Of a stretch of DNA of 64,000 bases, positions 32,566 to 52,169 are shown piece by piece. This DNA is from a virus. The stretch lies in the IMG/VR virus record IMGVR_UViG_3300045988_125296, one strand, 5' to 3'. Numbering within the stretch: the stretch's first letter is position 1; the number at the start of each line of letters is the position of its first letter. Position numbers and translations under genes: made by a program. A model generated the notes under the pieces. The model searched no databases. It was not told where the DNA came from and saw only the letters and a program-made list of their open reading frames with translations.

Positions 32566-35142
32566 ATGGAAGTAGGTAGTAACCTTGTGGCAACAGAGTC
32601 TGAACTACGACATTTAGGTATAGATATTTCCACCTTAGAAAAAAATCTTACTTTACCGAATCCTGAATATGTAAATAAGAAAAGATTTGGCAAGGGTAAG
32701 ATTTATGGACATATTGAACCTTATATTTGTTATTTAAAGAAAGTAGGTTCATCTTATATTGTTCCTCGATATTACATAGGAGAACTTGGTAAGTATGGGA
32801 ATGAAGGTAGAGACGTAAAGATTCATTTTAAGTTCAAACTTCGGGATTATCAACAAAAATTTTGGGACGATAATTCTTCTGCCTTTGAAGAAAGCACAGG
32901 TATTTTACTTGAAGCTGCTTGTGGTACGGGTAAGTGTCATGGAAAAGGAACTCCCATTCTTATGTACGATGGGTCTGTTAAGAATGTAGAGGACATTCGT
33001 GTTGGGGATTTACTTATGGGTGATGATAGTACACCTCGTAGGGTTCTTTCTCTTGCAAGGGGTCATGAGGAGATGTTTGTCGTGCATCAGAAAAAAGGCA
33101 TTGATTATACTGTAAATAGGTCTCACATATTATCATTGCAATATAGGCCATGGGGATTTGGTAATAAAGAGCAGCATAGGAAGGATGCTCATAATGCCTC
33201 TCAGTATGGAGAAGTAAGGGATATTTGCATCGAGGATTATTTGAAACTTTCTAAGACTCAGAAATCATATCTTTACGGATATTGTGTTCCAGTTGAATAT
33301 TCTAATAGGGAAGTTCAGATTCCTCCTTATTTTCTTGGTGCATGGCTTGGCGATGGAACTTCTCGTGTGCCACACATTACAACAGACCGCAGAGATAGGG
33401 TTTTGGTTCACTATTATCGTGAAATTGCGGGTATGTTTAATTGTAATCTTGAACTTGTTAGGCAGGAGGGTAATAATTCCAATGTATATAAGTTTGTTGG
33501 TAAGGAGATTGAAAAAGGAAGACATAAGAACCCTCTTTTAGATGCTTTGAGATTTTATAATCTAATTCAGAATAAGCATATCCCGGATGATTATCTTATC
33601 AATTCAAGGGAAAATCGCTTGCAGCTTCTTGCAGGATTACTTGATACTGATGGAAGTTATAGTACGGGTTGCTTTGATTTTATTCAGAAACGAAAAGACC
33701 TTGCTTTGCAGGTTCGTAAGCTGTGTTGGTCATTGGGTTTTCGTGTAAAATTGACTAAGAAAATTATTAAGGGTCAATCTTACTGGAGATTGTCTATAAG
33801 TGGCGATTTTAGTGAATTACCCACTAAATTGGGTAGAAAAGTTCCACTTAGAAGGCGCATAAATAAAGACTCAAGGGTTAATGGAATATCTGTTGAAAGT
33901 ATTGGAGAAGGAGATTACTACGGTTTTACTCTTGATGGAAATCATAGGTACTGCCTTGCAGATGGCACAGTTACACATAATACTATTATGGCCATTTATT
34001 TTTCGATGATTCGAGGTAAACAGACAATGGTATTGGTTCCCACTTATTATTTGGCCAAGCAATGGAAACAACGTATTGAAGAGTCAACAGATTCTACTTG
34101 TATAATTGTTTCCTCTAAGGATACCGAAATTCGTGTGGATAGTGACTTTACAATAATTGTTTTGGATTTATTTACGTGTAGAAAACTTCCTGCTGAACTT
34201 ATACATAATGTAGGCCACGTTATTCTTGACGAGGCTCATCGTGTTGGTGCTGAGATGTATCTTCCTATTCTTGACGAAGTACCTGCCATTTATCGGACTG
34301 CTCTTACGGCTACATTTCGAAGAACGGATGGAGTTCATAAGATACTTAAATACCACTTTGGAGAGTGTATTCAGATGAAGAGTCATTTTCCACGGCCTCT
34401 TGTTTATAGTGTAAAGACTAATGTACAAATAAGGAGTATCTTATCGAAAAATAAGAAGTACGAACATTTTGTAGACTTCTTGGATAGGAACAATGTTCCT
34501 TATTCTGAGACTAAAAGTGCCATAGAGTTTCCATCTCTTGATTTAAGAGATGTTGCAGAAAAAGAATATAAAAAGGGGGTTCTTACAAAAACTGCTTTTC
34601 ATGAAATAGCTTCATGTCTTAAACGAAGTTCTGAGATGCCTTATTCAGTCGTTGACTCGTATTTGAATGAACATTCTGGACGTAGAAAGATTGCTATTCG
34701 TGTTATTCAAGAATGTTTGGACTCAGGTAGAAACATTCTTTTCCTCTCAAAGCGAAAATCTACCTTGAAGGACTTACACAAGTATTTTGCAGCATATAAG
34801 CCTATGCTCATCGTTTCTGAGACAAATTCACGGTCTCCCGAAGATGAGGATTACTTGCAGAATACTTGCCCCCTTATTTTTGGTATCTCACAATTAGCTA
34901 AGGAAGGTCTTGATATTGATAGGTTAGATACCCTTATTATTCATTTACCTATGAAAGATACCGAACAAGCTATTGGACGTATAAATCGTCTCTACGAGGG
35001 TAAGAAATTTCCTGTTTGTTTATATCTTTTGGATAATTGCCCTATTACGTTTGCCGTTTTTAGAAATGCCCAAAAATTTATCTCCATCAATGCCGATTAT
35101 AAAGGTGAACGGACTCTTTTAACTTTAAAATCTGCCTTATAG
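32566..35142 (+). CDS. SF2 (DEAH) DNA helicase interrupted by an intein
   Basis: Exteins carry motif I AACGTGK|T split by the intein, Ia MVLVPT, II ILDEAH, III TATFRR and VI QAIGRINR. Confidence 0.85.
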   Translation: MEVGSNLVATESELRHLGIDISTLEKNLTLPNPEYVNKKRFGKGKIYGHIEPYICYLKKVGSSYIVPRYYIGELGKYGNEGRDVKIHFKFKLRDYQQKFWDDNSSAFEESTGILLEAACGTGKCHGKGTPILMYDGSVKNVEDIRVGDLLMGDDSTPRRVLSLARGHEEMFVVHQKKGIDYTVNRSHILSLQYRPWGFGNKEQHRKDAHNASQYGEVRDICIEDYLKLSKTQKSYLYGYCVPVEYSNREVQIPPYFLGAWLGDGTSRVPHITTDRRDRVLVHYYREIAGMFNCNLELVRQEGNNSNVYKFVGKEIEKGRHKNPLLDALRFYNLIQNKHIPDDYLINSRENRLQLLAGLLDTDGSYSTGCFDFIQKRKDLALQVRKLCWSLGFRVKLTKKIIKGQSYWRLSISGDFSELPTKLGRKVPLRRRINKDSRVNGISVESIGEGDYYGFTLDGNHRYCLADGTVTHNTIMAIYFSMIRGKQTMVLVPTYYLAKQWKQRIEESTDSTCIIVSSKDTEIRVDSDFTIIVLDLFTCRKLPAELIHNVGHVILDEAHRVGAEMYLPILDEVPAIYRTALTATFRRTDGVHKILKYHFGECIQMKSHFPRPLVYSVKTNVQIRSILSKNKKYEHFVDFLDRNNVPYSETKSAIEFPSLDLRDVAEKEYKKGVLTKTAFHEIASCLKRSSEMPYSVVDSYLNEHSGRRKIAIRVIQECLDSGRNILFLSKRKSTLKDLHKYFAAYKPMLIVSETNSRSPEDEDYLQNTCPLIFGISQLAKEGLDIDRLDTLIIHLPMKDTEQAIGRINRLYEGKKFPVCLYLLDNCPITFAVFRNAQKFISINADYKGERTLLTLKSAL
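32935..33981 (+). mobile_element. intein (349 aa) with LAGLIDADG homing endonuclease domain, in the helicase P-loop
   Basis: Starts at Cys (CHGKGTPILMYDG) and ends ...GTVTHN, followed by +1 Thr. Block B: NRSHILSL. LAGLIDADG motifs: FLGAWLGDGTS and LLAGLLDTDGSY. Confidence 0.85.
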
Positions 35143-35202
35143 GTCTATTTGGATATTTCTATATACTTATGTATATTTATATCGATTGAAATTTATAATT
35201 AT

Positions 35203-35415
35203 ATGGTACGTGTTATTAGAGAATTATGTAAGGTTCTAATGTTTGTTATCCTTTGGGGATTCCCATTGTGGTTAGCTAAGTGGAACGATGATAATAACTT
35301 TTTATGGTTTTTACTTGTTAGCTTTTTTTCCACTTTGGGTGTTTTCTCCCATTATGAAGATTTAGAACGTATTGAACAAAGTAATAAACAGAACGATGAG
35401 TCGGGCACAGAGTGA
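35203..35415 (+). CDS. small membrane protein
   Basis: The track start 35149 is TTG. ATG 35203 gives MVRVIRELCKVLMFVILWGFPLWLAKW... with two hydrophobic spans. Confidence 0.4.
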   Translation: MVRVIRELCKVLMFVILWGFPLWLAKWNDDNNFLWFLLVSFFSTLGVFSHYEDLERIEQSNKQNDESGTE

Positions 35416-36031
35416 ATCTCGGAGGGTAAAAAGATACCTCTTTCATAGAGCTAAGTACGGTAAACTCCGAAAAGGCGATACTGAAAAGTCATATATGGAT
35501 AATATGGGTTATGAATACAGCTATAAATGGATAGCTTCCCTATCGTCTTTTTGGAATATTTTTTCTGGGTGTTTGAAAAATGGTTTTCCTATTGTAGTGT
35601 CTAAACTATGGTATTCGGCATGGGCATTTTATCCTTTTTTCTTTATACGTAAAGACTTTAAGGGTAATCCAGTGCACACGCTTAATCATGAGCGCATTCA
35701 TATTAGACAACAGAGAGACATACATTTAACTGTAAGCGTTCCCTTGATTATTCTATGTGGACTTGCGGAGCTATTTGGATGGTTCAATCCTATTTACTTA
35801 CTTTGTATTGTTCCGTTTGTTCCTACCATAGTGTATGGATTTGAGATATTACATTCTTATCTTTATTTATGGAATATGAATAGTTTGCGGAAATTCGATA
35901 AGTTGGATTCTCCTATTACCTTTCATAAGGTACGTGAGAATACATGTTTTGAAAAGGAGGCAATAGCTCATGCTTCAAATGTCGAATACCTTTTTGAACG
36001 AAAATTTTGGGCGGTTATTAGATTTATGTAG
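35372..36031 (+). CDS. polytopic membrane protein with HExxH motif (putative metalloprotease-like)
   Basis: LNHERIHIRQQ (HExxH) lies between hydrophobic segments. 219 aa. Confidence 0.45.
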   Translation: MNKVINRTMSRAQSESRRVKRYLFHRAKYGKLRKGDTEKSYMDNMGYEYSYKWIASLSSFWNIFSGCLKNGFPIVVSKLWYSAWAFYPFFFIRKDFKGNPVHTLNHERIHIRQQRDIHLTVSVPLIILCGLAELFGWFNPIYLLCIVPFVPTIVYGFEILHSYLYLWNMNSLRKFDKLDSPITFHKVRENTCFEKEAIAHASNVEYLFERKFWAVIRFM

Positions 36032-36033
36032 TT

Positions 36034-36294
36034 ATGGTGGTGAAATTAGAATTTACAGCTGACTCTACTAAGGAACAGTATGAGACTTTATATACCCTTG
36101 AAGTAGGGTCTGTATTCAAGGTACGTTCTTCTGATTTTGAGACAGTAATGAGACGCATTGAGGAATTTAAACCATGTAATTTGAATTTTTCAGTATTTCC
36201 CATAAATCCCGGAACAGCATTATATACGACTTATGGAGCAGACCATTGTGTTATAACAGATAACTCTTCTTGCTCCAAGATTATTACAGAGTGA
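36034..36294 (+). CDS. hypothetical protein
   Basis: 86-aa ORF. Confidence 0.4.
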   Translation: MVVKLEFTADSTKEQYETLYTLEVGSVFKVRSSDFETVMRRIEEFKPCNLNFSVFPINPGTALYTTYGADHCVITDNSSCSKIITE

Positions 36295-36388
36295 TTTGTA
36301 AATTTAAAACATAAATCTTATATTTAAATGTTTCTTTAACGCATGCCAACGGCATGTAATTATATTCACAATTTAATTTTTATTTATT

Positions 36389-37240
36389 ATGGTAATCGGA
36401 AAGATTAAGCCGACTGCTACAATCGTAGCACAGTTCGCAGCAGGTGTTGAAATTGAATCTATTCAGCACGATGGTAAAATGTATTTACCCGTAGTAACTA
36501 TGGGTGACTTTTCTGTAAAAGAGGAACCAGAAAAAGTTCCTGCTTCACCGGCTAAACCGGAAACTTCCTCTGCTGAGGTTTCTCCCTCCTATACCAAAGA
36601 GGAACTGATGGCAATGGACCCCAAAGAACTCATCAAAATTTGTAAGAATGAGTTCGGTATTAACCCCGAAGATTTTGAAGGGAAAAATACGAACAAAAAA
36701 TTGAGAGACCTCATTTTGGGTGCTCAGGAGAATCCCGAAGCCATGCAGACAAAAAAAGAAGAAGAAGATGACGAAGATTCTGACGATGACGCACCAAAAG
36801 ATGAAGACTCTGAATTGATAGACAATATCGCTGAGATTCTCGAAGATTTTGATTCCGGTAAAAAAACAAAGAAGAAGGCTCTCTCTGCCATTTACGCTCT
36901 TTCGGAAAATCCTAATGAGGATGCTATTGCCGAGCTTGTTGACAATTTTGAAGAAGACGGTGATTGTGACCTCGACGACACAGCTTCCAAGATTTCCAAA
37001 CTTTTCGGTGCTAAGAGCAAAGCTCCTAAAAGTAAAAAGGAAAAAGAAGACCTTGTTTCTCTCGAAGACCTTGAAGTAGGAGACCGGATTTCTGTGTGGT
37101 GGAATGACGACAATCAAGAATGGTATGACGGAGAAGTTGCGTCCATTAAACGTGGAAAAGTAACTGTCGATTATGACGATGGCACTTCGGGTGTTATTGA
37201 TACAAAAATTCATACGAAAATAAAAAGAATCACAGAGTAA
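36389..37240 (+). CDS. acidic protein with HeH/SAP-like segment and C-terminal Tudor/SH3-like barrel
   Basis: YTKEELMAMDPKELIKICKNEFGI, then long D/E-rich linkers, then C-terminal VGDRISVWWNDDNQEWYDGEVASIKRGKVTVDYDDGTSGVI. Confidence 0.55.
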   Translation: MVIGKIKPTATIVAQFAAGVEIESIQHDGKMYLPVVTMGDFSVKEEPEKVPASPAKPETSSAEVSPSYTKEELMAMDPKELIKICKNEFGINPEDFEGKNTNKKLRDLILGAQENPEAMQTKKEEEDDEDSDDDAPKDEDSELIDNIAEILEDFDSGKKTKKKALSAIYALSENPNEDAIAELVDNFEEDGDCDLDDTASKISKLFGAKSKAPKSKKEKEDLVSLEDLEVGDRISVWWNDDNQEWYDGEVASIKRGKVTVDYDDGTSGVIDTKIHTKIKRITE

Positions 37241-37263
37241 TCCGATTGCCGAGTGAATTAGAC

Positions 37264-37297
37264 GAGAGTCGGGGATAAAATCTTCGACTCTCTTTTT
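37264..37297 (+). terminator. rho-independent terminator
   Basis: GAGAGTCG...CGACTCTC stem (extendable with G-U pairs) followed by TTTTTATTT. Confidence 0.6.
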
Positions 37298-37321
37298 ATT
37301 TATACTTTAATAATTTGAGCT

Positions 37322-37771
37322 ATGCCAGTTAAGAAAGAAAAATCAACTCAATCTGTTAAAGATTTAGCCTTGTTAGGCATTAGTTATGCGAATAACAAGA
37401 AAGAGATTAAACATTTGGAGGCCGAGTGCACTAAAATGCGGAAACCTTTGGAATCTTATCTTGAAGAAAAAGGACATGTTCTTGAAAGTGGGAGTAAATT
37501 AGCCATTCTTCCTTATGTTGATGTCGAGGTACATCTTAAAAAAACATTGAGAACTGGAAAAGTACTTTTACCGGAAGCTATGGAGGTTCTTGAAAAAAAT
37601 GGCCTCTCTGAGTGTATTGAGAATGTACCTACTATTCGAGAAGATGTTATCGAGGCCCTTTATTATGAAGGTAAGATAACAGATGAACTCTTAATGAAGA
37701 TTTATAAGAGCAAACCTACTTTCGCATTTAGTGTGGAGGTTAAACACAGTACCCCAGATGAGCCTGAATAA
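37322..37771 (+). CDS. hypothetical protein
   Basis: 149-aa ORF with a coiled-coil N-terminus. Confidence 0.45.
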   Translation: MPVKKEKSTQSVKDLALLGISYANNKKEIKHLEAECTKMRKPLESYLEEKGHVLESGSKLAILPYVDVEVHLKKTLRTGKVLLPEAMEVLEKNGLSECIENVPTIREDVIEALYYEGKITDELLMKIYKSKPTFAFSVEVKHSTPDEPE

Positions 37772-38308: not shown

Positions 38309-38309
38309 T

Positions 38310-39095: not shown

Positions 39096-39287
39096 ATGAA
39101 ACATATTAAATTGAGAATTACTCTGACTTATAATTTTGTCAAGGGTAAAGACTGTACGGGTTGTCATTTAACTGACTATTGTAATGAGCTAAATGATTTA
39201 GATTGCGAGGAAGGTACGATGGGACATTATGAGTGTGACGAAGAAGAACTTGAACAATTAGATGACTCAGATGGATTTAAAAACTAA
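39096..39287 (+). CDS. small acidic Cys-containing protein
   Basis: 63-aa ORF with CTGCH...C...C...C. Confidence 0.35.
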   Translation: MKHIKLRITLTYNFVKGKDCTGCHLTDYCNELNDLDCEEGTMGHYECDEEELEQLDDSDGFKN

Positions 39288-39891
39288 GGAGTATTACTTA
39301 TACTGTGGAATAAAATCGGGGTGGCATGAGAAGTCATTTGACGATTTTACTAATGACGTGGAAGCACTGGCAATCGTGAAAAAATACTTAAAGTATTCCA
39401 AAGAAGCAACCAATAAAGGTATCGGTCTTTATCTTTGGGGTTCTAATGGGACAGGTAAAAGTCATTTAATGAACTGTTCTTTTAAGGAATTAGTAACGAA
39501 AGGAAATAAAGTTAGACTTTATTCAATGGATGAGATTGTCGACAAATTTACTTCATCATGGTATTCTGATGAAGATAAGAAGGAACTGAATAACGTTCTT
39601 TTGAATATTGATTTTCTCGGCATTGACGAGTTTGGTAAGAATGTAGATAAGGATGGTAATCCTGTTTATCTTCCAGATTTGGTCAAAAGGGTTATGGAGT
39701 CTGTTATTCGTTTTCGGGTTCAGATGAATAAACCTATTTGGTTTGCGTCTAATACAGACCCTAAGTTTGTAAAGGATGTTTTCTCCGAAGATATTGCCTC
39801 TTTGTTACGTGAAGCGGTGGTTCCTGTTTGTGTGAGGGGTGAAGATTATCGGAAAAGGATACAACGAAAGAATAAAAGTAGATTCTTATGA
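39262..39891 (+). CDS. DnaC/IstB-like AAA+ helicase loader
   Basis: Walker A LWGSNGTGKSHL and Walker B DFLGIDEFG. Immediately upstream of the DnaB-like helicase. Confidence 0.7.
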   Translation: MTQMDLKTKEYYLYCGIKSGWHEKSFDDFTNDVEALAIVKKYLKYSKEATNKGIGLYLWGSNGTGKSHLMNCSFKELVTKGNKVRLYSMDEIVDKFTSSWYSDEDKKELNNVLLNIDFLGIDEFGKNVDKDGNPVYLPDLVKRVMESVIRFRVQMNKPIWFASNTDPKFVKDVFSEDIASLLREAVVPVCVRGEDYRKRIQRKNKSRFL

Positions 39892-41159
39892 CAGTAGCCG
39901 AAAAATTATTTATCGCATGCTTAAATGCAAAGGATTATAAGGTTCTTTCTATCGTACAACGAAAATGGCTCGATGGTATCGAAGTTAAAGAGTATAACTT
40001 CATTATGGATTATTATCGAGAGCATGGGGATGTAATTGGTATAAAGACTTTTTGTTCCGAATTTAAGTTAGACATGTCATCGGTAGATGCTCGTCCTGCT
40101 TTTTATCTGAACAGCTTAAAGGAACGATTTATCTTTTCGATGATGTCCGACAATATCCCCAAGATTCTTCACGGTTTAAAAGATGACCCAAGAGAAAAGC
40201 TCCTTAAACTTCAAGGTTTGGTGTCTATGCTTTCTGTGGACGCTGTTGAAAGTAAGGATTCACTATATTCTGATGATATAGAACTTCGTAAAAAAGATTA
40301 CGAAGAGCGTATGAAGTCTTTGGGTGTTACCTATTTGAGTATGGGGTGTCCTGATTTGGATAAAACTTTTTATGGTTATCGTAAACAAGATTTAATCACT
40401 ATCGGAGGTAAATCTGGACAAGGTAAATCTTGGTTGATGGTCTTTCTTGCTCACCAGTTAGAAATTTCTTTGAGAGATAAAGAAGAATCGACAGGAGTAG
40501 GTTACGGAGATATTCTTTTTATCACTAATGAAATGGGTGAGGAGGAAATAAAAGAGCGTCTTGACTGTATTAAATTTCGACTTCCTTATGAGAGGTTTTT
40601 GAAAGGTTCATTGACTGAACGTGAGAAGAATCGTTACTATCGAGGACTTGACAGCCTTAAAAAGAAGAAGTCCAAGATAAGAATACTTTACAGTTGTCAG
40701 ACCATAGATGAATTAACTACTTATGTCGGCTTATACAAGCCGTCTGCTGTTTTTATTGACGGTTCGTACCTTATGGAATCTAAGATGGCAGAAGGGTGGG
40801 AAAGAATCGTCTATATTACAAGAAACTTAAAACAGATTGCCAAAAATTTTAAGGTCCCTATAATCAATACCACACAATTAAAGAGAGGTTCGTCAAAATC
40901 TGGGTCCAAGTTTTCACTTGATGGACAAGATGACTTTGCTTATTCGAGTTCTTATTCACAGGACTCTGATATTGCTATTAGAATGTTTCAAGACGCTGAT
41001 ATGAAATTCCATGATTTGATTGGGTGTGAAGTTGTAAAAGGTAGACGAGTTATAGGTGGGGCCACTCTTATTTTTCAGAACGATTTAAATAATATGGTAC
41101 AATCTATAACTTTACCAGCAGATGAGCCAGTTGAACCCGTTAAAAAAGACGATTTCTGA
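39888..41159 (+). CDS. dnaB: replicative DNA helicase (DnaB family)
   Basis: ITIGGKSGQGKSW (Walker A), AVFIDGSYLM (Walker B), PIINTTQLKRG. Confidence 0.8.
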   Translation: MTVAEKLFIACLNAKDYKVLSIVQRKWLDGIEVKEYNFIMDYYREHGDVIGIKTFCSEFKLDMSSVDARPAFYLNSLKERFIFSMMSDNIPKILHGLKDDPREKLLKLQGLVSMLSVDAVESKDSLYSDDIELRKKDYEERMKSLGVTYLSMGCPDLDKTFYGYRKQDLITIGGKSGQGKSWLMVFLAHQLEISLRDKEESTGVGYGDILFITNEMGEEEIKERLDCIKFRLPYERFLKGSLTEREKNRYYRGLDSLKKKKSKIRILYSCQTIDELTTYVGLYKPSAVFIDGSYLMESKMAEGWERIVYITRNLKQIAKNFKVPIINTTQLKRGSSKSGSKFSLDGQDDFAYSSSYSQDSDIAIRMFQDADMKFHDLIGCEVVKGRRVIGGATLIFQNDLNNMVQSITLPADEPVEPVKKDDF

Positions 41160-44187: not shown

Positions 44188-44248
44188 TTAAGGAATTAAG
44201 TGGGTGTGTATTTTATACATGCCTACTTTCTTATTTAAGAAGTATATT

Positions 44249-47191
44249 ATGCAAAAGATAAAAGTATATAGCGGTTATGTACAACTCTTAGAGAGTGCTG
44301 ACGAAGTTTCTGCATGGTTTAGGAAGTGTCCAGATGATTCTATAATCACATTTGACTGGGAAACAACCGGACTCGAATATGATGCGATACCTTTGGGCCT
44401 TTCTTTACATCGACATGAGGGAGATAATTCTCCGTGTTTTATTCCTGTGGATTATTTTTTCAATAACGGCATCTCCATGAAGGTTCTTGCTGCTATCTGT
44501 AATAAAGAGTTCAAGAGGTTAAGACTTGTCGCTCACAATGCGAAATTCGATAGCATGATAAATGTTATGAATGGAATCGAAGACTCTAACTGCAATATTA
44601 TCGCAGATACTCTTGTTATGATTCACTTATACGACCCTACTCTGGATAAACAGCTTGAAAAACGAGTAAAGGCTGATTTTGGTTATGAGAAACCTACCTT
44701 TGAACAGATATGTGGTAAAAAGTGGAACAAGATAAGTTGGTCGAGAGATGGTAACGAGCTATTGCCTTTACTTGCAGGATATGCTGGGGAGGATACTTAC
44801 TGGGAAACTCAGATGTATCGTAAATACTTGCCTTTGCTTGATGAAGACGCAAAACGTGTTCTTACAAGAATTGAGATGCCTCTTATAAGTATTTTAAGAG
44901 ATGCCAAAATTCGTGGCGTTAAGATTGATGTTGATTTACTTCATAAAATGAGAGTTGAGGCTGAACAAAAACTTATTGCTTATAAGGATAATATTTATAA
45001 AATTGCGGGTTGTGTGTTTAACCTTAATTCAAATCCTCAGAAACAAAAAGTATTTTTTGAGAAGTTAAAACTTCCCGTCATATCGAAGACAAAATCGGGT
45101 GCTCCGAGTACAGATTCTAAGTCTGCGGAAGAGTGGGCTGAAATGGGATATGAAATTGGTGAGGCTCTTGTTGCTTATTCTGAATTGCAGAAGTTGATGT
45201 CGGGGTATCTTATTCCAATTCCAGAATTATTGGACGACGATTGTGTTCTTCGTGGAGACTTGAATAGTTGTGGTACAAAAACGGGCAGGATGTCGAGCAG
45301 TTCTCCAAACTTACAAAACCAGCCAAATAATCACGACTTTCCTATAAGATGTGCATTTGTTCCGAGACCCGGATATGTGTTTGTCAATTACGATTACTCT
45401 CAATTGGAGTTACGTGTTATGGCTCACATGAGCAAGGATGCGAAGTTTATGGACATCTTTTTACATGGTAGAGACCCACATGGAGAAGTTGCAAAAGCAT
45501 GTGGTATCACTCGTAAACAAGCGAAATGTGTTGTTAAGGACACACTCATTTACACAGATAGCGGAGTTATTAGGCTTGGAGATGTATCTTCTTGCAGAAA
45601 CTTTGATACCTTTGATTCACCGATGATTAAACAAGTTTACAACGGCGACAGAATGATTGGTGTAAACTCTTTTTACTCTAATGGGGAGGATAGTGTTCTT
45701 GCTATTATCACTAAGAGGGGTATTGTTCGGAGTTCTCGTAACCATCAGTTTATTCTTGCTGATGGCTCTTTAAAGAGAGCATGTGAACTTCACATAGGTG
45801 ATGAACTGATGGATAATGTTAAGTTTACTTATGAAGGGTCGGAGACTTATATTAAGTATAACCCATTTTTTGATGAAGGAACTCCTTTTAGTATTAAGAT
45901 GGACACACAGTGGTCATATATTGCAGGTGTTCTTTCTGGAGATGGATGTTTTTCGGAGAAACATATAGGAGTTTCAGTTGGAAGTGGAAGGTTCTTCCGT
46001 TCTTGGCAAGACATTCTCAAAAAGGAGTTTGCAAAGAAGGGACTCCCTCTTACTAAGAGAAGTAACTCTAATTATATGTACTTGGGTTCTTCGAGGTTTG
46101 TGAAGTTTATGACACCTTTCGGACTTTCTGATGAAAGGGGTAAGAAAAATTTCAAAATTCCAATGTGGGTTCTGAATGGAACAATTGAGATGCGCAAAAA
46201 CTTTTTGGGTGGTCTCATTGATACTGATGGAACTATAGGTGAAACAGGAACTACAAGTATTTGTACCAAGAGTATTCAACTTGCAGAGGATTTATGTTTT
46301 CTTCTTAATGGTATTGGATACGATTACGGTGTTGAGACCTCTTGGAATGAAGTTTATGAAAAGTTCTATTATAGGATTCATATTTATTCTACTTCTTTGG
46401 AAGATTTATTAAGAAGTGAGGTTATAAAATGTCCTCATAAGGTGGTTAGTCTAAAGGAACGAGTTACCAAACTTGGCAAGGGAGCAAAGATGAAGTCCAA
46501 CAAGATACTTCAAGTTATTTCTCTTGGTAAGGATTATCTGTGTGATTTAAATGTGGACTCTGAAGACCATCTATATATGACAGGTACTCTTATTACTCAT
46601 AATACTATGAACTTCGGTGTTCTTTATGGAATGGGACCCGATAAGTATGAAAGAACGTTTAATGTATCGAGGGAAAGAGCTTTGCAGATGATTGACGATT
46701 ATCATAATACTTATGCGGGTTTTGCCAAGTGGAAAACGGCCACTGAAAATTACGCAAAGAAACATGGTTATGTAAAAAACTTATTCGGTAGGATAAGAAG
46801 GTTCACTGAAACCACCAAGAATCCTTTTGAAGGAGTCGATAAGAAGAAATATTTTGGTGAATTACGTCAAGCGGTAAATACAATTATTCAAGGTACTGGT
46901 GCTGATATTGTAAAACTTGCGACGGTAGCGATGTGTAAAAAGTTTAAGGATTTGAACTTAGACGCTCATTTCTTATTACAGGTGCATGATGAGGTTCTTA
47001 TCGAGGCTCGTATTGACCAGATGCGTGAAATTGAGCGTGTGGTCATCGATTGTATGGAAAACACAGTTAAATTAGATGTTCCCCTTGTTGCTGATGGTAA
47101 GATACTTGCTAATTGGGGTGAGATGAAAGACGATACCGTTGTCTCCTTATGTGATAGATTTGATTATTCACTTTATATACCAATTTTATAA
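44249..47191 (+). CDS. polA: family A DNA polymerase (3'-5' exonuclease plus polymerase) interrupted by an intein
   Basis: Exo I ITFDWETTGL, motif A DYSQLELRVMAH, motif B RKQAK|TMNFGVLYGMG split by the intein, motif C QVHDEVLIE. Start ambiguous (GTG 44204, ATG 44219 or ATG 44249). Confidence 0.85.
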   Translation: MQKIKVYSGYVQLLESADEVSAWFRKCPDDSIITFDWETTGLEYDAIPLGLSLHRHEGDNSPCFIPVDYFFNNGISMKVLAAICNKEFKRLRLVAHNAKFDSMINVMNGIEDSNCNIIADTLVMIHLYDPTLDKQLEKRVKADFGYEKPTFEQICGKKWNKISWSRDGNELLPLLAGYAGEDTYWETQMYRKYLPLLDEDAKRVLTRIEMPLISILRDAKIRGVKIDVDLLHKMRVEAEQKLIAYKDNIYKIAGCVFNLNSNPQKQKVFFEKLKLPVISKTKSGAPSTDSKSAEEWAEMGYEIGEALVAYSELQKLMSGYLIPIPELLDDDCVLRGDLNSCGTKTGRMSSSSPNLQNQPNNHDFPIRCAFVPRPGYVFVNYDYSQLELRVMAHMSKDAKFMDIFLHGRDPHGEVAKACGITRKQAKCVVKDTLIYTDSGVIRLGDVSSCRNFDTFDSPMIKQVYNGDRMIGVNSFYSNGEDSVLAIITKRGIVRSSRNHQFILADGSLKRACELHIGDELMDNVKFTYEGSETYIKYNPFFDEGTPFSIKMDTQWSYIAGVLSGDGCFSEKHIGVSVGSGRFFRSWQDILKKEFAKKGLPLTKRSNSNYMYLGSSRFVKFMTPFGLSDERGKKNFKIPMWVLNGTIEMRKNFLGGLIDTDGTIGETGTTSICTKSIQLAEDLCFLLNGIGYDYGVETSWNEVYEKFYYRIHIYSTSLEDLLRSEVIKCPHKVVSLKERVTKLGKGAKMKSNKILQVISLGKDYLCDLNVDSEDHLYMTGTLITHNTMNFGVLYGMGPDKYERTFNVSRERALQMIDDYHNTYAGFAKWKTATENYAKKHGYVKNLFGRIRRFTETTKNPFEGVDKKKYFGELRQAVNTIIQGTGADIVKLATVAMCKKFKDLNLDAHFLLQVHDEVLIEARIDQMREIERVVIDCMENTVKLDVPLVADGKILANWGEMKDDTVVSLCDRFDYSLYIPIL
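45527..46603 (+). mobile_element. intein (359 aa) with LAGLIDADG homing endonuclease domain, in polymerase motif B
   Basis: Starts CVVKDTLIYTDSG and ends TLITHN, followed by +1 Thr. Block B: SRNHQFIL. LAGLIDADG motifs: YIAGVLSGDGCF and FLGGLIDTDGT. Confidence 0.85.
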
Positions 47192-47919: not shown

Positions 47920-49033
47920 TTCTGTGCTTCATAAATTTAACTCTACAATGGGAGACGGAGTTATTCATACGGCTTCTACTTTACCGAATTGTCGGAAAAT
48001 CAAGAGTTCCATACCTGTTTATAACTACGTTACCGATGGAGGGTTTCCTGTTGGTAGGGTTATTGAGCATTATGGAGAAAATGGTTCCTTAAAGAGTTAT
48101 ACTGCATACGATGCAATAGCACAGTTCCAGCATTACGATTGGGCAAACCATGAACAAGGAGCATTTAAGAGCTTTTCCTACTCAGGTACTGGTGATTTAC
48201 GTGAATTGGAGGGTTATGAGTTACGTAAAGGGTATAAACCTAAAAAAGAACCTATTGCCAGACGTGTCGCTCTTGTTGACGTTGAGGCCACTTATACTCC
48301 TGATTGGGGGGCAAAATTTGGAATTGACAATGAGGGTTTAATTCTTATAAGACCCACTTTTCTTACTCAATGCGTAGATATTGTACAAGCCTTATTAGCT
48401 GATGAGGCGATAAGTCTTATTGTGTTTGACAGTCTTTCGGCAGTCGGTACAGATGACGAGATTGACAAGTCAATGGAGGACCAACAAATGGCATCCGGCG
48501 CACGTTTTTGGAATAAGGCTTGTCGTAAATTTCAAGCGGCTATGAATGGAAATCCACATAAAGAGGCAACCCTTTTGGTTATCAATTCTGCGTATCAAAA
48601 AACCGGAATCGCTTATGGAGACCCAGAAGTGATTCGTAATGGAGAACAGTTGAAACGTACCAAATCTTTATCGGTTAGATTTAAGGCTTTGAAGAAAATA
48701 AATGGTAAAACTGATGAAGGAGATATTGTTGTCGGTAGGAATATAGCGATTGAATGCGTAAAGAATAAATGCGGTGTAAATGGTCGTTCGGCCAATTTCT
48801 TTTATGCGTTTGTTGACTATGGAAATGTTAGTGCTTATCATACAGATTCCTCTGGACAAATCGTTGATTTAGGAATGCGATTTGGTCTTGTAGACCGTAA
48901 AGGTGCTTGGTACTCTTACGAAGATATAAGAGTAAGTGGAATGGATAATTTTGTTGACGAACTTGTTAAGAGTGGTAAGATTCGTGATTTGGAGAATGAC
49001 GTTTATGATGAATTTGAAAACGTAACAGAGTGA
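47891..49033 (+). CDS. RecA-like recombinase with a deviant Walker A
   Basis: GGFPVGRVIEHYGENGSLKS (compare RecA [20 protein letters not shown]). Walker B LIVFDSLSAV. Confidence 0.6.
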   Translation: MAKKELSSLNSVLHKFNSTMGDGVIHTASTLPNCRKIKSSIPVYNYVTDGGFPVGRVIEHYGENGSLKSYTAYDAIAQFQHYDWANHEQGAFKSFSYSGTGDLRELEGYELRKGYKPKKEPIARRVALVDVEATYTPDWGAKFGIDNEGLILIRPTFLTQCVDIVQALLADEAISLIVFDSLSAVGTDDEIDKSMEDQQMASGARFWNKACRKFQAAMNGNPHKEATLLVINSAYQKTGIAYGDPEVIRNGEQLKRTKSLSVRFKALKKINGKTDEGDIVVGRNIAIECVKNKCGVNGRSANFFYAFVDYGNVSAYHTDSSGQIVDLGMRFGLVDRKGAWYSYEDIRVSGMDNFVDELVKSGKIRDLENDVYDEFENVTE

Positions 49034-49332
49034 TGGGTAGAAAAATTGAAGTAGATGAAGACGATTTGAAGAAGATTATACTTTTACTTAAATTGAGCAA
49101 GCAATATGTCCAATCTCCCCATGAGAATTTGACCTTGTGTAATTTGTGGAGAGTATCGGGTAAACTTGCCGATAAGTTAATGAAAAAGGCCAAATTGGTT
49201 ATGGTGACTAATAAGGGGCGCACTACACTTAAATCAATTGGAGGAGTAAAATCAGAGGAAGTATCTGAGACATCGCTTGATAAACATGCAGATAAAGTCC
49301 CCAGATGTAGATGTCGTAAACGAAAAAGTTAA
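49030..49332 (+). CDS. hypothetical protein
   Basis: 100-aa ORF. ATGA overlap with the upstream gene. Confidence 0.4.
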   Translation: MMGRKIEVDEDDLKKIILLLKLSKQYVQSPHENLTLCNLWRVSGKLADKLMKKAKLVMVTNKGRTTLKSIGGVKSEEVSETSLDKHADKVPRCRCRKRKS

Positions 49333-49336
49333 TACT

Positions 49337-49693
49337 ATGGCTCGTAGAAAATTCGGATATATGGAAGCTATGTTCGGTGAGAAAACAACTCGTGAACGTT
49401 CAGGAAAACAGGAAAGCCGAATTGCAAAGCAACTTAACGGACATACTACTATCAATTCTGGCGCAACGTTTGGTCAGAATGATGTGGTTACTGATTTTTG
49501 CGAGGTTGAAGCTAAAACAACAAATAAAGAATCCTTCTCCTTTAAATTGTCTGATTGGAGACTTCTACGTAAAAAATGTGCGAGCAATAAAATTCCTATA
49601 TTTGTGGTGGACTTTGAACAAAGTAAAGACACCCTTGCGGTACTTACTTATGAAGATTTACTCTTTCTTATAGAGCAATCTAACCACAAATAA
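49337..49693 (+). CDS. PD-(D/E)XK nuclease, Hjc-like Holliday junction resolvase (paralogue 1)
   Basis: ERSGKQESRIAKQLNG...INSGATFGQNDVVTDFCEVEAKTT fits E...SG....D....E.K. ATG 49337 is preferred over 49277, which overlaps the upstream gene. Confidence 0.55.
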   Translation: MARRKFGYMEAMFGEKTTRERSGKQESRIAKQLNGHTTINSGATFGQNDVVTDFCEVEAKTTNKESFSFKLSDWRLLRKKCASNKIPIFVVDFEQSKDTLAVLTYEDLLFLIEQSNHK

Positions 49694-49750
49694 ACGTTTA
49701 AGAGGTTATAAGACAATTTGTTAGTTTTAGTTTAATTTTGTATATTTACT

Positions 49751-49948
49751 ATGCGTTTGAAAAACCATAAACCTAAACTAATTATCATAGGTTATGAAAT
49801 GCGGAAAAACCAGCATGAAGGTTTTAAGATAATTAAATTCTTTCGCTACGAGAATGAAAATTTTTCTCGGAAAAAGACTATCTATAAGCATTTGACTCTT
49901 TCTGACGCAGAATCTATTCTCTATAAATTAGAATCACAAATTTTATAA
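49751..49948 (+). CDS. hypothetical small protein
   Basis: 65-aa ORF in an otherwise non-coding 265-nt gap. TAATTTTG lies at 49733-49740 upstream. Confidence 0.3.
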   Translation: MRLKNHKPKLIIIGYEMRKNQHEGFKIIKFFRYENENFSRKKTIYKHLTLSDAESILYKLESQIL

Positions 49949-49958
49949 AACCCCTATT

Positions 49959-52169
49959 ATGGAAAAGTTTTTCTTTATGAGAACTGTTGCTGATAAAGGA
50001 CGCAACAGGTTACGCTTATTGAGCGGACAGTATCTTGACTCTCTCCCATTGGACCCAACATGGAATGTACAATCTGACAGAGCTTTAAGAGTTGTTTATC
50101 CGATTGGTACAACTTTTGGAACTTCCTCTCTAAAAAAAGCATCAGGTTTTTATGTCGCAGGAAATATTTATCCTCTTGGTTTAAGAAGTACGGATTATAG
50201 AGATTCTTCTCATATCGCTCCCGAAGAGATGACCCGTGCTTACGAGGTTTTTAGTCTTGGTCTTGATGAGGATTCCTCAAAAGATAAAGAACGTGAAGAC
50301 TTTGACGAACCTACCAGAAATTCTTACCTAAACAAATTAAAAAAGAATAAAGACTTTGACCCCCCAACTATTTCTGAGAACGGTTTTTATGTAGACTCTG
50401 ATAATTGGTATCTGCTGTTAAGAAACATTCAAAGTCAGGTTAACACGATGATGGTAGGTCCTACGGGTACTGGAAAGTGTTTGGGGAAAGATACCCCAGT
50501 TCTTATGTATGACGGGACTATTAAAATGGTTCAAGATGTTGTGGTAGGTGATAAACTTATGGGACCGGACTCTAAACCAAGAAATGTGCTGTCTGTTACT
50601 ACGGGGCGTGAAGAATTATTTAGGGTTACTCCGAAAAAAGGTGATAGTTGGGTATGTAATAAATCACATATTCTTTCCTTGAAAAGGACTAATGATGGAA
50701 CTTCTCTCGCAGGAACTGTGTGTAATGTCGGAGTTTCTGAATATCTTGGTTGGAGTAAGACGCATAAACATATTTATAAACAATGGCGTTCTGCGGTTGA
50801 TTTCCCGGAAAAGGAACTTTTACTTGACCCTTATTTCTTGGGTCTTTGGTTAGGAGACGGTCGTACAAATGCTCCTATTATTTGTACTGCGGACAGACAA
50901 ATTGTTCAGTATCTTCGGGATTACGCTTGGAGTTTAGGCTGCACTTTGTCGAAGTATTCTGAGCCTTCTAAGGCTAATAGTTATGCCATTGTTCAAAAGG
51001 ATATTTCGAGTACTCGTCAGAGAACTTCCATACAAAAGGCTATGGACATTTATGGTTTGCTTGGAAATAAACATATCCCATCTGACTTTCTTTACAATTC
51101 TCGTGAGAATAGGCTTCGACTATTCGCTGGTCTTATGGATACTGATGGGAGTTATCAGAATGGATTTTTTGAGTACTGCACTAAATTGGATTCTCTGAAA
51201 GATGCGGTTGTATATTTAGGTCGTTCACTTGGATATTTTGCTTGTGTAAGACAGAAGGAAGTTTCAGGGACTATTTATTGGAGAGTTAATTTTAGTGGTG
51301 ATTTCTCAGATGTCCCTACGAGGATAAAGAGAAAACGTCCTACTGAGAGAACTCAAAAGAAAGATGTTTTAATGACGGCTATTTCTGTTGAAAGTATTGG
51401 AAAGGGTGATTATTATGGTTTTACCATAGACGGAGACCATCTGTTTATGTTGGGTGATTTTACAGTTACACATAATACCGAACTTGTTCTTTTAGCTTGT
51501 AAGAAATTGGGTATTCCTTGTCACGTGTACGATATGGGGTCTATGTATGACCCTATTTCTGGACTTCTTGGAGTTCACCGTTTACAAAAGGGAGGAGTTT
51601 CTACTTTTGATTATGCAAAGTTTACAAAGGATATTTCAGAGCCGGGTGTCGTCTTATTAGACGAGTTAAGTCGTGCCCCTGTTACTACTAATAATATTTT
51701 ATTTCCTTGCTTAGACAGTCGTAGGTCTCTACCGATTGAGATTGCGGGTGGAAATGATTTACGTTCTATTAAAGTTCATGAAGATTGTTGTTTCGTTGCT
51801 ACGGCTAATGTTGGAGCCGAATATACAGGAACTATGAGTTTGGACCGTGCTTTGGTCGGACGTTTTTTCCCTTTGGAATTAGATTATATGCCGTTTGATT
51901 TTGAGACTGAGGTTCTTATGAAACGGTGTAAAATTTCGAAGAAGAATGCTGATTTAATCGTTAGAGTTGCTGATAATGTTAGGTCACTGTATCGGAAACA
52001 AGATATATCGTGTTCTTTATCTACTCGTGAAACTTTAATGGCTGCGGAATTGGTTTCTGACGGTTGGGAACTTCTTAAAGCTATGGAATTGGTGTTTCTA
52101 CCTTTGTTTGAAGGTACAATGGTAGAAGGTGAGAGAAGTGTTATTGCAAAAATAATAATGGCGATGTAA
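49959..52169 (+). CDS. MoxR/CobS-like AAA+ ATPase interrupted by an intein
   Basis: Walker A MVGPTGTGK|T split by the intein. Walker B GVVLLDELSRA. Then VATANVG...SLDRALVGRF. Confidence 0.8.
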   Translation: MEKFFFMRTVADKGRNRLRLLSGQYLDSLPLDPTWNVQSDRALRVVYPIGTTFGTSSLKKASGFYVAGNIYPLGLRSTDYRDSSHIAPEEMTRAYEVFSLGLDEDSSKDKEREDFDEPTRNSYLNKLKKNKDFDPPTISENGFYVDSDNWYLLLRNIQSQVNTMMVGPTGTGKCLGKDTPVLMYDGTIKMVQDVVVGDKLMGPDSKPRNVLSVTTGREELFRVTPKKGDSWVCNKSHILSLKRTNDGTSLAGTVCNVGVSEYLGWSKTHKHIYKQWRSAVDFPEKELLLDPYFLGLWLGDGRTNAPIICTADRQIVQYLRDYAWSLGCTLSKYSEPSKANSYAIVQKDISSTRQRTSIQKAMDIYGLLGNKHIPSDFLYNSRENRLRLFAGLMDTDGSYQNGFFEYCTKLDSLKDAVVYLGRSLGYFACVRQKEVSGTIYWRVNFSGDFSDVPTRIKRKRPTERTQKKDVLMTAISVESIGKGDYYGFTIDGDHLFMLGDFTVTHNTELVLLACKKLGIPCHVYDMGSMYDPISGLLGVHRLQKGGVSTFDYAKFTKDISEPGVVLLDELSRAPVTTNNILFPCLDSRRSLPIEIAGGNDLRSIKVHEDCCFVATANVGAEYTGTMSLDRALVGRFFPLELDYMPFDFETEVLMKRCKISKKNADLIVRVADNVRSLYRKQDISCSLSTRETLMAAELVSDGWELLKAMELVFLPLFEGTMVEGERSVIAKIIMAM
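50478..51476 (+). mobile_element. intein (333 aa) with LAGLIDADG homing endonuclease domain, in the AAA+ P-loop
   Basis: Starts CLGKDTPVLMYDG and ends DFTVTHN, followed by +1 Thr. LAGLIDADG motifs: FLGLWLGDGRT and LFAGLMDTDGSY. Alignable end to end with the helicase intein. Confidence 0.85.

What the first reader, a model, noticed from the sequence alone, without database searches (positions are those of the whole stretch)
32935..51476. Two paralogous inteins occupy the identical GTGK^T P-loop position in two unrelated ATPases of the same genome
The helicase intein (32935-33981) and the AAA+ intein (50478-51476) align end to end.
- First 50 residues, 31/50 identical by my count: CHGKGTPILMYDGSVKNVEDIRVGDLLMGDDSTPRRVLSLARGHEEMFVV versus CLGKDTPVLMYDGTIKMVQDVVVGDKLMGPDSKPRNVLSVTTGREELFRV.
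- Last 32 residues, 24/32 identical: ISVESIGEGDYYGFTLDGNHRYCLADGTVTHN versus ISVESIGKGDYYGFTIDGDHLFMLGDFTVTHN.

The hosts are different protein families, an SF2 DEAH helicase and a MoxR/CobS-type AAA+. Both inteins nevertheless sit between the Lys and the Thr of the Walker A motif.

The 12 nt upstream of the insertion points are GGTACGGGTAAG and GGTACTGGAAAG, identical at 10 of 12 positions. This looks like ectopic homing of one LAGLIDADG intein between analogous P-loop-coding sites within a single phage genome, followed by divergence.

The DnaC-like loader also encodes GTGKS (39262-39891) but carries no intein.

From memory, the N-terminal block resembles the VMA1/PI-SceI-type intein (C.aKGT.vLM.DG...vG..vMG.D..PR.V). 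That recollection needs checking.
Basis: seen in the sequence. Interest (0 to 1): 0.7.

Follow-up and report, generated by a model that had tools for sequence, protein, structure and literature searches.

The report
Two related P-loop inteins, separately acquired
A gut-type phage carries two related self-splicing inteins at the same ATP-binding-loop position of a helicase and an AAA+ ATPase, but each was acquired separately from the matching gene of other phages rather than copied within this genome, which is an ordinary case of a known kind.

Summary
The SF2 helicase (32566-35142) and the CobS/MoxR-like AAA+ (49959-52169) each carry a PI-SceI-type LAGLIDADG intein (i1 32935-33981; i2 50478-51476) between Lys and Thr of Walker A. 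They are 45% identical (E 3e-102).

- i2 groups with inteins at the same site of orthologous AAA+ genes elsewhere (56-86% identity; bootstrap 0.97).
- i1 groups with orthologous helicase inteins (bootstrap 0.99).
- i1 and i2 as sisters: 0 of 200 replicates.
- A genome about 97% identical at DNA level (L005) has an identical i1 over the part the locus holds (residues 131-349) but precisely empty AAA+ and Pol A sites, with co-conversion-like differences at both junctions.

So i2, and a third intein in Pol A (45527-46603), look like recent allelic gains.

About 97% of roughly 240 sampled relatives sit in Walker A of more than 15 unrelated NTPase families. That pattern and its "P-loop hopping" explanation are already published. 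The "10 of 12 nt" match is just the shared GTGK codons.

Verdict: a new member of a known kind, low interest.

The parts
32566..35142 (+). Precursor ORF of an SF2 (ResIII/DEAD, DEAH-motif, T5 D10-like) helicase, 858 aa. N-extein 32566-32934, C-extein 33982-35142.
   Evidence: ORF list, translation, Pfam ResIII 6e-15 and DEAD 7e-07. Syntenic ortholog in Bacteroides phage BS162P1 is annotated 'putative helicase D10'.
32935..33981 (+). Intein i1 (349 aa): class-1 Hint domain plus a PI-SceI-type LAGLIDADG endonuclease, inserted at CGTGK^C...THN^T of Walker A. LAGLIDADG motifs FLGAWLGDG (33331-33357) and LAGLLDTDG (33628-33654).
   Evidence: Removing it gives GILLEAACGTGK|TIMAIY, which matches the intein-free orthologs in L002, L006, L008 and L027. 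L005 is 100% identical over the residues it holds, 131-349. BS162P1 is 58% identical.
49959..52169 (+). Precursor ORF of a CobS/MoxR-like AAA+ ATPase (AAA_5 + CbbQ_C), 736 aa. N-extein 49959-50477, C-extein 51477-52169.
   Evidence: The intein-free ortholog in BS162P1 is 400 aa. The intein-free allele in L005 is 98-100% identical.
50478..51476 (+). Intein i2 (333 aa): same family as i1, inserted at GPTGTGK^C...THN^T of Walker A. LAGLIDADG motifs FLGLWLGDG (50835-50861) and FAGLMDTDG (51123-51149). A lineage-specific recent gain.
   Evidence: Orthologous-site relatives P0003, P0001, P0002 and L007. Precisely absent in L005 (blastn breakpoints 50476/51473). Four synonymous differences lie within -3 to +12 nt of the junction.
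44204..47191 (+). Precursor ORF of family A DNA polymerase (995 aa as listed; the alignment to BS162P1 starts at residue 16, so the real start is probably ATG 44249).
   Evidence: Pfam DNA_pol_A 1e-90 split into two stretches. Comparison with the 621-aa BS162P1 polymerase.
45527..46603 (+). Intein i3 (359 aa), a different LAGLIDADG intein lineage in Pol A motif B (RKQAK^C...THN^TMNFGVLYG).
   Evidence: Precisely absent in L005 and BS162P1. Present at 77% identity in 13 related loci. The +1 residue is Thr when occupied and Val in empty alleles. A divergent tract of about 300 nt lies upstream of the junction relative to L005.
39262..39891 (+). DnaC/IstB-like loader ATPase with an unoccupied Walker A (GSNGTGK-S, motif at 39439-39462).
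   Evidence: Pfam IstB_IS21, Bac_DnaA and AFG1. Walker A scan.
39888..41159 (+). DnaB-like helicase with an unoccupied Walker A here (GKSGQGK-S, motif at 40407-40430). The same site holds a same-family intein in related contigs L002 and L007.
   Evidence: Pfam DnaB_C 1e-22..
52172..54046 (+). CobT-like VWA-domain partner gene of the AAA+ ATPase. It supports the CobS/MoxR-type assignment of the i2 host.
   Evidence: Pfam CobT_C 4e-10.

Best explanation
The window is from a tailed phage related to Bacteroides phage BS162P1. It carries three active-looking homing inteins. i1 and i2 belong to one large PI-SceI-like intein family that lives almost only inside the Walker A motif of P-loop NTPases, usually between the Lys and the Thr/Ser, which serves as the +1 splicing nucleophile.

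Within this phage group the family has at least three site-specific lineages, one each in the SF2 helicase, the DnaB-like helicase and the CobS-like AAA+. Each lineage spreads horizontally between orthologous alleles by ordinary allelic homing: during co-infection the LAGLIDADG endonuclease cuts the empty allele, and repair copies in the intein together with a short stretch of flanking extein.

The helicase intein i1 is an older resident shared with relatives. The AAA+ intein i2 and the Pol A intein i3 entered the window's lineage recently, from co-infecting phages whose orthologous genes were already occupied.

The jump that founded the AAA+ lineage from some other P-loop gene happened long ago in an unidentified genome. 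Its closest non-orthologous relatives are only 50-52% identical and sit in several different host genes, and the NJ sisters of the AAA+ clade are a phosphomevalonate-kinase-like protein and an AAA_24 protein rather than helicases.

Shown: homology, sites, clade structure, presence/absence polymorphism, junction differences. Inferred: endonuclease activity, splicing, homing during co-infection, direction and timing of the ancient jump.
For: - Homology and type: 45% identity, E 3e-102; Hom_end_hint, Hom_end, LAGLIDADG_3; PI-SceI E 1.6e-20; Cys1, NxSH block B, two LAGLIDADG motifs with the acidic residues, terminal HN, +1 Thr in i1, i2 and i3.
- Site-specific lineages: (P0001, P0002, P0003 and L007 are orthologous AAA+ proteins with the intein at GPxGxGK^C). 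One search gives the identity matrix. One search gives NJ bootstraps of 0.97 (AAA clade), 0.99 (helicase clade) and 1.0 (DnaB clade), and 0/200 for i1+i2 as sisters or for an exclusive AAA+HEL group.
- Horizontal allelic spread: intein identity exceeds N-extein identity, 86 vs 58%, 65 vs 37%, 61 vs 39%. P0083's helicase intein is 52-53% identical to i1 while its exteins are about 31%.
- Recent gain: L005 is 95-97% identical in DNA, with i1 100% identical over residues 131-349, but the alignment breaks exactly at 45525/46606 and 50476/51473. Four synonymous differences lie within -3 to +12 nt of the AAA+ junction, in a stretch that otherwise has 0-3 differences per 100 nt. Upstream of the Pol A junction there are 38 differences between -300 and -100, and the +1 residue is Thr vs Val.
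- Old split of i1 and i2: 53.5% nucleotide identity, 49% third-position identity under identical residues, longest exact match 18 nt.
- Family habit: 163 of 169 database members and 67 of 69 viral loci lie in Walker A. Hosts include thymidine kinase, DnaB, ResIII helicases, AAA_24, AAA, dTMP kinase, KaiC, PhoH and others.
Against: - No near-identical donor of i2 was found. The best is P0003, 86% over the N-terminal half only, and the only IMG/VR member of the lineage is the decayed copy in L007/L099.
- The tree is a distance (NJ) tree. Deep branches between site lineages are unresolved (40-52% identity, star-like), so the origin of the AAA+ lineage cannot be placed.
- An old helicase-to-AAA+ jump inside an ancestral phage of this same group is not formally excluded.
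- The junction differences at the AAA+ site could instead be cleavage-resistance changes in the empty allele rather than a co-conversion tract.
- The polymorphism could in principle be read as recent precise loss in L005 rather than gain in the window.
- Endonuclease and splicing activities were not and cannot be tested here.
Confidence: 0.8

Rival explanations
1. One reading: one intein moved ectopically between the helicase and AAA+ Walker A sites inside this phage genome or its immediate ancestor, and the two copies then diverged.
For: Same family, same K^T position, same genome. The family clearly can change host genes. L007 also carries two family members in two P-loop genes.
Against: - i1+i2 as sisters in 0/200 replicates, and the helicase plus AAA+ clades as an exclusive group in 0/200.
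- i2 is closer to orthologous AAA+ inteins (56-86%) and even to Klebsiella/Vibrio helicase inteins (50-52%) than to i1 (45-48%).
- L005 shares i1 at 100% identity over residues 131-349 but has an empty AAA+ site, so i2 arrived after i1 was already in its present form, yet i2 is only 45% identical to it.
- Synonymous sites are near saturation and there is no conversion tract.
- The 10/12-nt similarity is only the shared codons.
Confidence: 0.03
2. An old ectopic jump within this phage group: in a distant ancestor of the BS162P1-like phages a helicase or DnaB-like P-loop intein invaded the AAA+ P-loop. The three site lineages then diverged and have since spread allelically.
For: Three P-loop genes of the same replication module carry family members in this one phage group. 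All are 40-48% identical to each other, not much less than to outside relatives. Deep nodes are unresolved.
Against: AAA+HEL, AAA+DnaB, HEL+DnaB and all-three groupings got 0-1% bootstrap support. The nearest non-orthologous neighbours of each lineage come from other host genes and other environments: P0004 and Klebsiella MEW1 helicases, P0125 (AAA_24) and P0065 for i2, and P0181 for the DnaB lineage.
Confidence: 0.12
3. Vertical inheritance with repeated precise loss: all three or four sites were occupied in the ancestor of the group, and empty sites such as the L005 AAA+ and Pol A are recent precise deletions.
For: Occupancy is patchy across the group. L007's AAA+ intein has a decayed endonuclease, as expected late in the homing cycle. 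L002 has an empty Pol A site with Thr at +1, possibly a footprint of a former intein.
Against: - Intein identity exceeds extein identity for the AAA+ lineage and for P0083, which vertical descent does not predict.
- The empty Pol A alleles of L005, L001 and L011 have Val at +1, which could not have supported splicing.
- The differences from L005 are concentrated at the junctions rather than spread evenly.
- Precise loss itself normally requires recombination with an empty allele.
Confidence: 0.05

Closest known systems
PI-SceI, the Saccharomyces cerevisiae VMA1 intein (PDB 1VDE, 1DFA, 1LWS; Pfam Hom_end_hint PF05203 and Hom_end PF05204)
   Same: Same intein family by sequence (E 1.6e-20; both Pfam models match): class-1 Hint domain, nested two-motif LAGLIDADG endonuclease, N-terminal block C.[AG]KGT..LM.DG. 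From established knowledge, PI-SceI also sits in the Walker A loop of its host (GAFG^CGKT). That is the G^xGK[TS] position held by 43 of 169 sampled relatives.
   Different: Only the N-terminal 54 residues and the endonuclease/C-terminal part align. i1 and i2 are about 100 residues shorter. The position in the loop differs (K^T rather than G^C), the +1 nucleophile is Thr, and the host genes and host organisms differ.
'Intein-containing helicase precursor' of Salmonella, Klebsiella, Vibrio and Escherichia phages (for example Klebsiella phage MEW1/JD001, Salmonella FSL SP-038, Vibrio 393E50-1, Escherichia phage Bas95)
   Same: Same family, same K^T Walker A site, and the host is an SF2 helicase. 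Full-length alignment at 42-50% identity. These are annotated as inteins in GenBank records.
   Different: The helicases are different and the hosts are proteobacterial. None of these records was seen to carry the intein in a CobS-like AAA+ gene.
'Classic' P-loop intein insertions: mycobacteriophage TerL1-a, bacterial DnaB-b, archaeal MCM-a, RFC, RadA (Kelley et al. 2016, PMC5050341; Novikova et al. 2016, PMC4760082)
   Same: Insertion between the invariant Lys and the nucleophilic Thr of Walker A, in phage replication or packaging ATPases. Presence/absence polymorphism among close phages. Homing endonuclease activity was shown experimentally for some TerL inteins.
   Different: Those papers document enrichment of inteins at P-loops. 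In the passages read, they do not tie the P-loop inteins of different host genes into one sequence family. Relatedness of those specific inteins to i1 and i2 was not tested here.
P-loop-to-P-loop transfers between non-homologous proteins in Anaeramoeba (Gallot-Lavallee et al. 2023, PMC10710043, Fig. 6B), and the terminase-to-Cas4 'extein switching' through a shared nucleotide-binding site in actinophages (bioRxiv 10.1101/2025.01.02.630785)
   Different: In those cases the inteins in different genes group together phylogenetically, which supports a jump. Here the two copies in one genome do not. The Anaeramoeba cluster is described as class-3-like, whereas i1 and i2 are class-1 PI-SceI-like.

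Membership tests
Canonical (class 1) intein | In-frame insertion whose removal restores an uninterrupted, conserved host motif identical to intein-free orthologs | tested here: met
   The spliced junctions GILLEAACGTGK|TIMAIY and NTMMVGPTGTGK|TELVLL match the empty alleles in L002/L006/L008/L027 and L005/L001/L002/L006/L009. The blastn breakpoints against L005 are exact.
Canonical (class 1) intein | Cys/Ser at position 1, block B His, C-terminal His-Asn, and Cys/Ser/Thr at +1 | tested here: met
   i1: C1, NRSH, THN, +1 T. i2: C1, NKSH, THN, +1 T. i3: C1, SRNH, THN, +1 T. Pfam Hom_end_hint matches at 2e-20 and 3e-19, above its cut-off.
Canonical (class 1) intein | Autocatalytic protein splicing that yields ligated exteins | not testable with these tools
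   Needs expression of the precursors and detection of the spliced products.
PI-SceI-type LAGLIDADG homing endonuclease | Two LAGLIDADG motifs that keep the catalytic acidic residues, nested between the Hint halves | tested here: met
   i1 has FLGAWLGDG and LAGLLDTDG. i2 has FLGLWLGDG and FAGLMDTDG. They align to the PI-SceI motifs LLGLWIGDG and LAGLIDSDG. Pfam LAGLIDADG_3 and Hom_end hits are weak and near their cut-offs.
PI-SceI-type LAGLIDADG homing endonuclease | Site-specific cleavage of the intein-free allele | not testable with these tools
   Indirect support only: precise presence/absence in genomes about 97% identical, and differences clustered at the junctions.
'Classic' Walker A K^T/S P-loop intein | Insertion between the invariant Lys and the Thr/Ser of GxxxxGK[TS] | tested here: met
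   CGTGK^...^T and GPTGTGK^...^T. 120 of 169 database relatives and 67 of 69 viral loci share this position.
   0/200 bootstrap replicates. Each copy clusters with orthologous-site inteins of other genomes at 0.97 and 0.99. Identity matrix.
   10/12 within the GTGK codons, with synonymous differences only. 20/48 in the remaining +/-30 nt, equal to comparisons with unrelated Walker A sites. A chance site scores 11/12.
CobS/MoxR-type AAA+ (host of i2) | AAA_5-type ATPase core with a CbbQ/NorQ C-terminal domain and an adjacent VWA (CobT-like) partner | tested here: met
   Pfam AAA_5 2e-05 and CbbQ_C 2e-07. The downstream ORF matches CobT_C at 4e-10.

The most novel reading that the evidence does not exclude
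The most novel reading still open is that the endonucleases of this PI-SceI-like family recognise mainly the DNA that encodes the Walker A core (G-x-G-K-T/S), with relaxed requirements elsewhere. Non-allelic invasion of any P-loop gene would then be an intrinsic, recurrent property of the family rather than a rare accident. This BS162P1-like phage group would be a natural test bed: three occupied P-loop genes (SF2 helicase, DnaB-like, CobS-like AAA+), one never-occupied gene (DnaC-like), and matching empty alleles for each. The roughly 97% Walker A occupancy across more than 15 NTPase families fits this reading. It fits equally well with rare jumps followed by selective retention at a site that cannot tolerate imprecise loss.
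Probability: 0.25. Interest if true: 0.5.

Novelty: new member of a known kind. Interest (0 to 1): 0.22.

Why it matters
It matters little beyond annotation. For this genome, three essential replication genes (helicase, Pol A, AAA+) should be annotated as intein-containing precursors, and the spliced proteins, not the long ORFs, should be used for comparison.

For intein biology it adds one more well-resolved example of the homing cycle in uncultured gut-type phages:
- four polymorphic sites;
- empty, occupied and decaying alleles among close relatives;
- junction tracts consistent with co-conversion.

It also adds a CobS/MoxR-like AAA+ to the list of P-loop hosts of the PI-SceI-like family.

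The broader idea, that inteins hop between Walker A motifs of unrelated NTPases, is already in the literature (PMC10710043; bioRxiv 10.1101/2025.01.02.630785). This window does not provide a case of a recent jump.

Tried and rejected
- Megablast of both precursor genes against the phage collection found nothing. Relatives were only reachable at protein level and in IMG/VR.
- The search for homologous proteins with the inteins alone listed no protein longer than about 610 aa. Full-length helicase or AAA+ precursors therefore did not appear, and the closest AAA+ relatives are truncated fragments (P0001-P0003). I compensated with locus-level surveys and did not spend the third search.
- My first survey table showed only the best hit per locus, so it hid the decayed AAA+ intein of L007. 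It was found from the 786-nt gap between the extein matches.
- The weak tblastn hit of i2 at 5236-5364 (E 0.013) lies inside a QueD-like gene and was dismissed as chance.
- I looked for intragenomic gene conversion between i1 and i2. The longest exact match is 18 nt and third-position identity is 49%, so there is none.
- The first literature search, with four terms, returned nothing. Later searches found the relevant papers.
- No maximum-likelihood tree software was available, so I used a bootstrapped NJ tree with Kimura-corrected distances. Its deep nodes are not trustworthy and I draw no conclusion from them.
- Structure prediction, RNA tools and the representative-protein search were judged unnecessary for this question.
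Full report
**1. What is in the sequence**

The window is a one-strand, about 36% GC tailed-phage genome segment. It encodes terminase, portal, major head and tape-measure genes, followed by a replication module.

The ORF at 32566-35142 (858 aa) is an SF2 helicase with ResIII and DEAD domains and a DEAH motif. It is interrupted after ...EAACGTGK by a 349-aa insertion (32935-33981) that starts with Cys, ends in THN, and is followed by Thr.

The ORF at 49959-52169 (736 aa) is an AAA_5/CbbQ_C ATPase, followed by a CobT-like VWA gene. It is interrupted after ...VGPTGTGK by a 333-aa insertion (50478-51476) with the same ends.

The two insertions align end to end at 45% identity, E 3e-102. Both match Pfam Hom_end_hint well above threshold and PI-SceI in the PDB at E 1.6e-20. 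Both keep two LAGLIDADG motifs with their acidic residues.

Removing them restores Walker A sequences identical to those of intein-free orthologs.

**2.

The family A DNA polymerase ORF (44204-47191) carries a third intein, i3 (45527-46603, 359 aa), in motif B (RKQAK^C...THN^TMNFGVLYG). It belongs to a different LAGLIDADG lineage, with only 25-31% identity to the C-terminal halves of i1 and i2.

**3. The relatives**

The closest cultured relative is Bacteroides phage BS162P1. It is syntenic, with exteins 50-75% identical. Its helicase has the intein at the same site (58% identity). Its polymerase and AAA+ genes are uninterrupted.

A scan of viral contigs with the primase gene gave 31 related loci. 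Surveying them for the three host genes and the three inteins shows that every site is polymorphic:
- The helicase intein is present in L003-L005 (100% identical over the part those loci hold, from residue 130 or 131 to 349), L017, L023 and L024. It is absent in L002, L006-L011 and others.
- i3 is present at 77% identity in 13 loci and absent in the rest.
- The AAA+ site is empty in all loci except L007.
- In L002 and L007 the same intein family occupies a further P-loop, that of the DnaB-like helicase (GKAGQGK^C...THN^T). That site is empty in the window.
- L007's AAA+ gene carries an i2-lineage intein that has lost both LAGLIDADG motifs (262 aa), a copy late in the homing cycle.

**4. Testing the ectopic-homing claim**

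That is what is found.
- The best database matches of i2 are three fragments of orthologous AAA+ proteins with the intein at the identical GPxGxGK^C site: P0003 86%, P0001 64%, P0002 61%. L007 is a fourth.
- In an alignment of 169 family members (335 columns), bootstrapped NJ gives 0.97 for the AAA+ lineage, 0.99 for the helicase lineage (i1, BS162P1, L023) and 1.0 for the DnaB-like lineage.
- It gives 0/200 for i1+i2 as sisters and 0/200 for an exclusive helicase-plus-AAA+ group.
- The sister of the helicase lineage, P0083, is a distant ortholog of the same helicase. Its exteins are about 31% identical and its intein 52-53% identical to i1.
- i2 is nearer to helicase inteins of Klebsiella and Vibrio phages (50-52%) than to i1 (45-48%).
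- At DNA level i1 and i2 are 53.5% identical. Third codon positions under identical residues are 49% identical and the longest exact match is 18 nt, so the split is old and there has been no conversion between them.

**5. Timing of the gains**

Contig L005 is 95-97% identical to the window in DNA. The alignment breaks exactly at the borders of i3 (45525/46606) and i2 (50476/51473).
- At the AAA+ junction, four synonymous differences lie within -3 to +12 nt, in a stretch that otherwise shows 0-3 differences per 100 nt.
- At the polymerase junction, divergence is concentrated in the 300 nt upstream. The +1 residue is Thr in the window and Val in L005, BS162P1 and L011.

These patterns fit repair-mediated copying of the intein with flanking donor sequence. 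For the AAA+ site they could also reflect cleavage-resistance changes in the empty allele.

The L005 locus holds only residues 131-349 of i1, and over that part it is 100% identical to the window. A copy of i1 made after the two genomes diverged would therefore be nearly identical to i1, and i2 is not.

For the AAA+ lineage, intein identity also exceeds N-extein identity (86 vs 58%, 65 vs 37%, 61 vs 39%). That is the mark of horizontal movement between orthologous alleles.

**6. The target-site argument**

The 10/12-nt identity covers four identical codons and differs only at synonymous positions. In the other 48 nt of the +/-30-nt windows the two sites share 20 positions. That is the same as either site shares with unrelated Walker A sites in the window. 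A fortuitous ATGKS in the tape-measure ORF scores 11/12. The similarity is a consequence of the amino-acid motif and is not separate evidence for a shared endonuclease target.

**7. What is true at the family level**

The relatives of i1 and i2 (35-65% identity) sit in thymidine kinases, DnaB, ResIII and SNF2 helicases, AAA_24, classical AAA, AAA_5, dTMP kinase, KaiC-like, PhoH, deoxynucleoside kinase and other P-loop proteins.
- Of 169 extracted inteins, 120 are at GK^[TS] and 43 at G^[TS]GK[TS].
- Of 69 resolvable viral loci, including many giant-virus MAGs, 67 are at GK^[TSC].

The family has therefore changed host gene many times while staying in Walker A. From established knowledge its prototype, PI-SceI, is also in a Walker A loop.

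**8. Comparison with the literature**

- Kelley et al. [quoted passage not shown]
- Novikova et al. 2016 (PMC4760082) document the enrichment of inteins in P-loops of non-orthologous ATPases.
- Swithers et al. 2009 (PMC2814812) state the rule recovered here: inteins at the same site of orthologous proteins are each other's relatives.
- Gallot-Lavallee et al. 2023 (PMC10710043) report intein transfers between the P-loops of non-homologous proteins.
- A 2025 preprint on actinophage inteins (10.1101/2025.01.02.630785) proposes a terminase-to-Cas4 jump through a shared nucleotide-binding site.

Both the phenomenon and the hypothesis are known. Many phage records already annotate "intein-containing helicase precursor" for members of this family.

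**9. Verdict**

The homology, the position and the family type are right.

The best explanation is three separately acquired, site-specific homing inteins. i1 is an older resident, and i2 and i3 are recent allelic gains (confidence about 0.8).

This is a new member of a known kind, possibly the first noted CobS/MoxR-like AAA+ host for the family. Interest is low (0.22).

The most novel reading left open is that the family's endonucleases target the Walker A coding core itself. That would make this phage group a convenient experimental system (probability about 0.25, interest if true about 0.5).

Noticed in passing
It is polymorphic among relatives (77% identical copies in 13 related loci, absent in L005 and BS162P1). 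The deposited-phage collection holds only one distant match (32%, an uncultured 485-kb phage).
   Followed up: partly
window 46604 (+1 codon of Pol A) vs L005:13166, L001, L011, L002: Occupied Pol A alleles have Thr at +1, and the empty alleles of L005, L001 and L011 have Val there. L002 has an empty site with Thr, which may be a footprint of a lost intein or a pre-adapted allele. Relative to L005, a tract of about 300 nt upstream of the junction is several-fold more divergent than the surroundings.
   Followed up: partly
L002:6860-7897 and L007:7181-8218; window 39888-41159 (Walker A at 40407-40430): In two related contigs the same intein family occupies the Walker A of the DnaB-like helicase (GKAGQGK^C...THN^T), while their SF2 helicase is empty. 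The window's DnaB-like gene is empty and has Ser at +1.
   Followed up: yes
L007:18208-18993 (same contig as L099): An i2-lineage intein in the AAA+ gene has lost both LAGLIDADG motifs (262 aa) but keeps the Hint blocks and termini. It looks like an intein on the way to a mini-intein. L007 also carries a second family member in its DnaB-like gene, so it too has two paralogous P-loop inteins.
   Followed up: partly
loci L049, L052, L054, L056-L058, L060 and others (GVMAG contigs): Many members of the same intein family (32-44% identity to i2) lie in giant-virus metagenome-assembled genomes, mostly at EVPCGRGK^. The family therefore spans phages, giant viruses and, through PI-SceI, fungi.
   Followed up: no
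window 44204-44249: The listed Pol A ORF starts at GTG 44204, but the alignment with the BS162P1 polymerase begins at residue 16 (MQKIKVY...). The true start is probably ATG 44249.
   Followed up: no
window 5095-5625: A QueD-like 6-pyruvoyl-tetrahydropterin synthase gene lies directly upstream of the large terminase. This hints at a 7-deazaguanine DNA-modification pathway in this phage. The weak i2 tblastn hit here (E 0.013) is chance.
   Followed up: no
(tool behaviour): When queried with a 333- or 349-aa intein, the homolog search listed no protein longer than about 583 and 611 aa respectively. Full-length precursors such as the window's own 736- and 858-aa proteins did not appear, so host-gene statistics from those tables are biased towards short or truncated proteins.
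   Followed up: no
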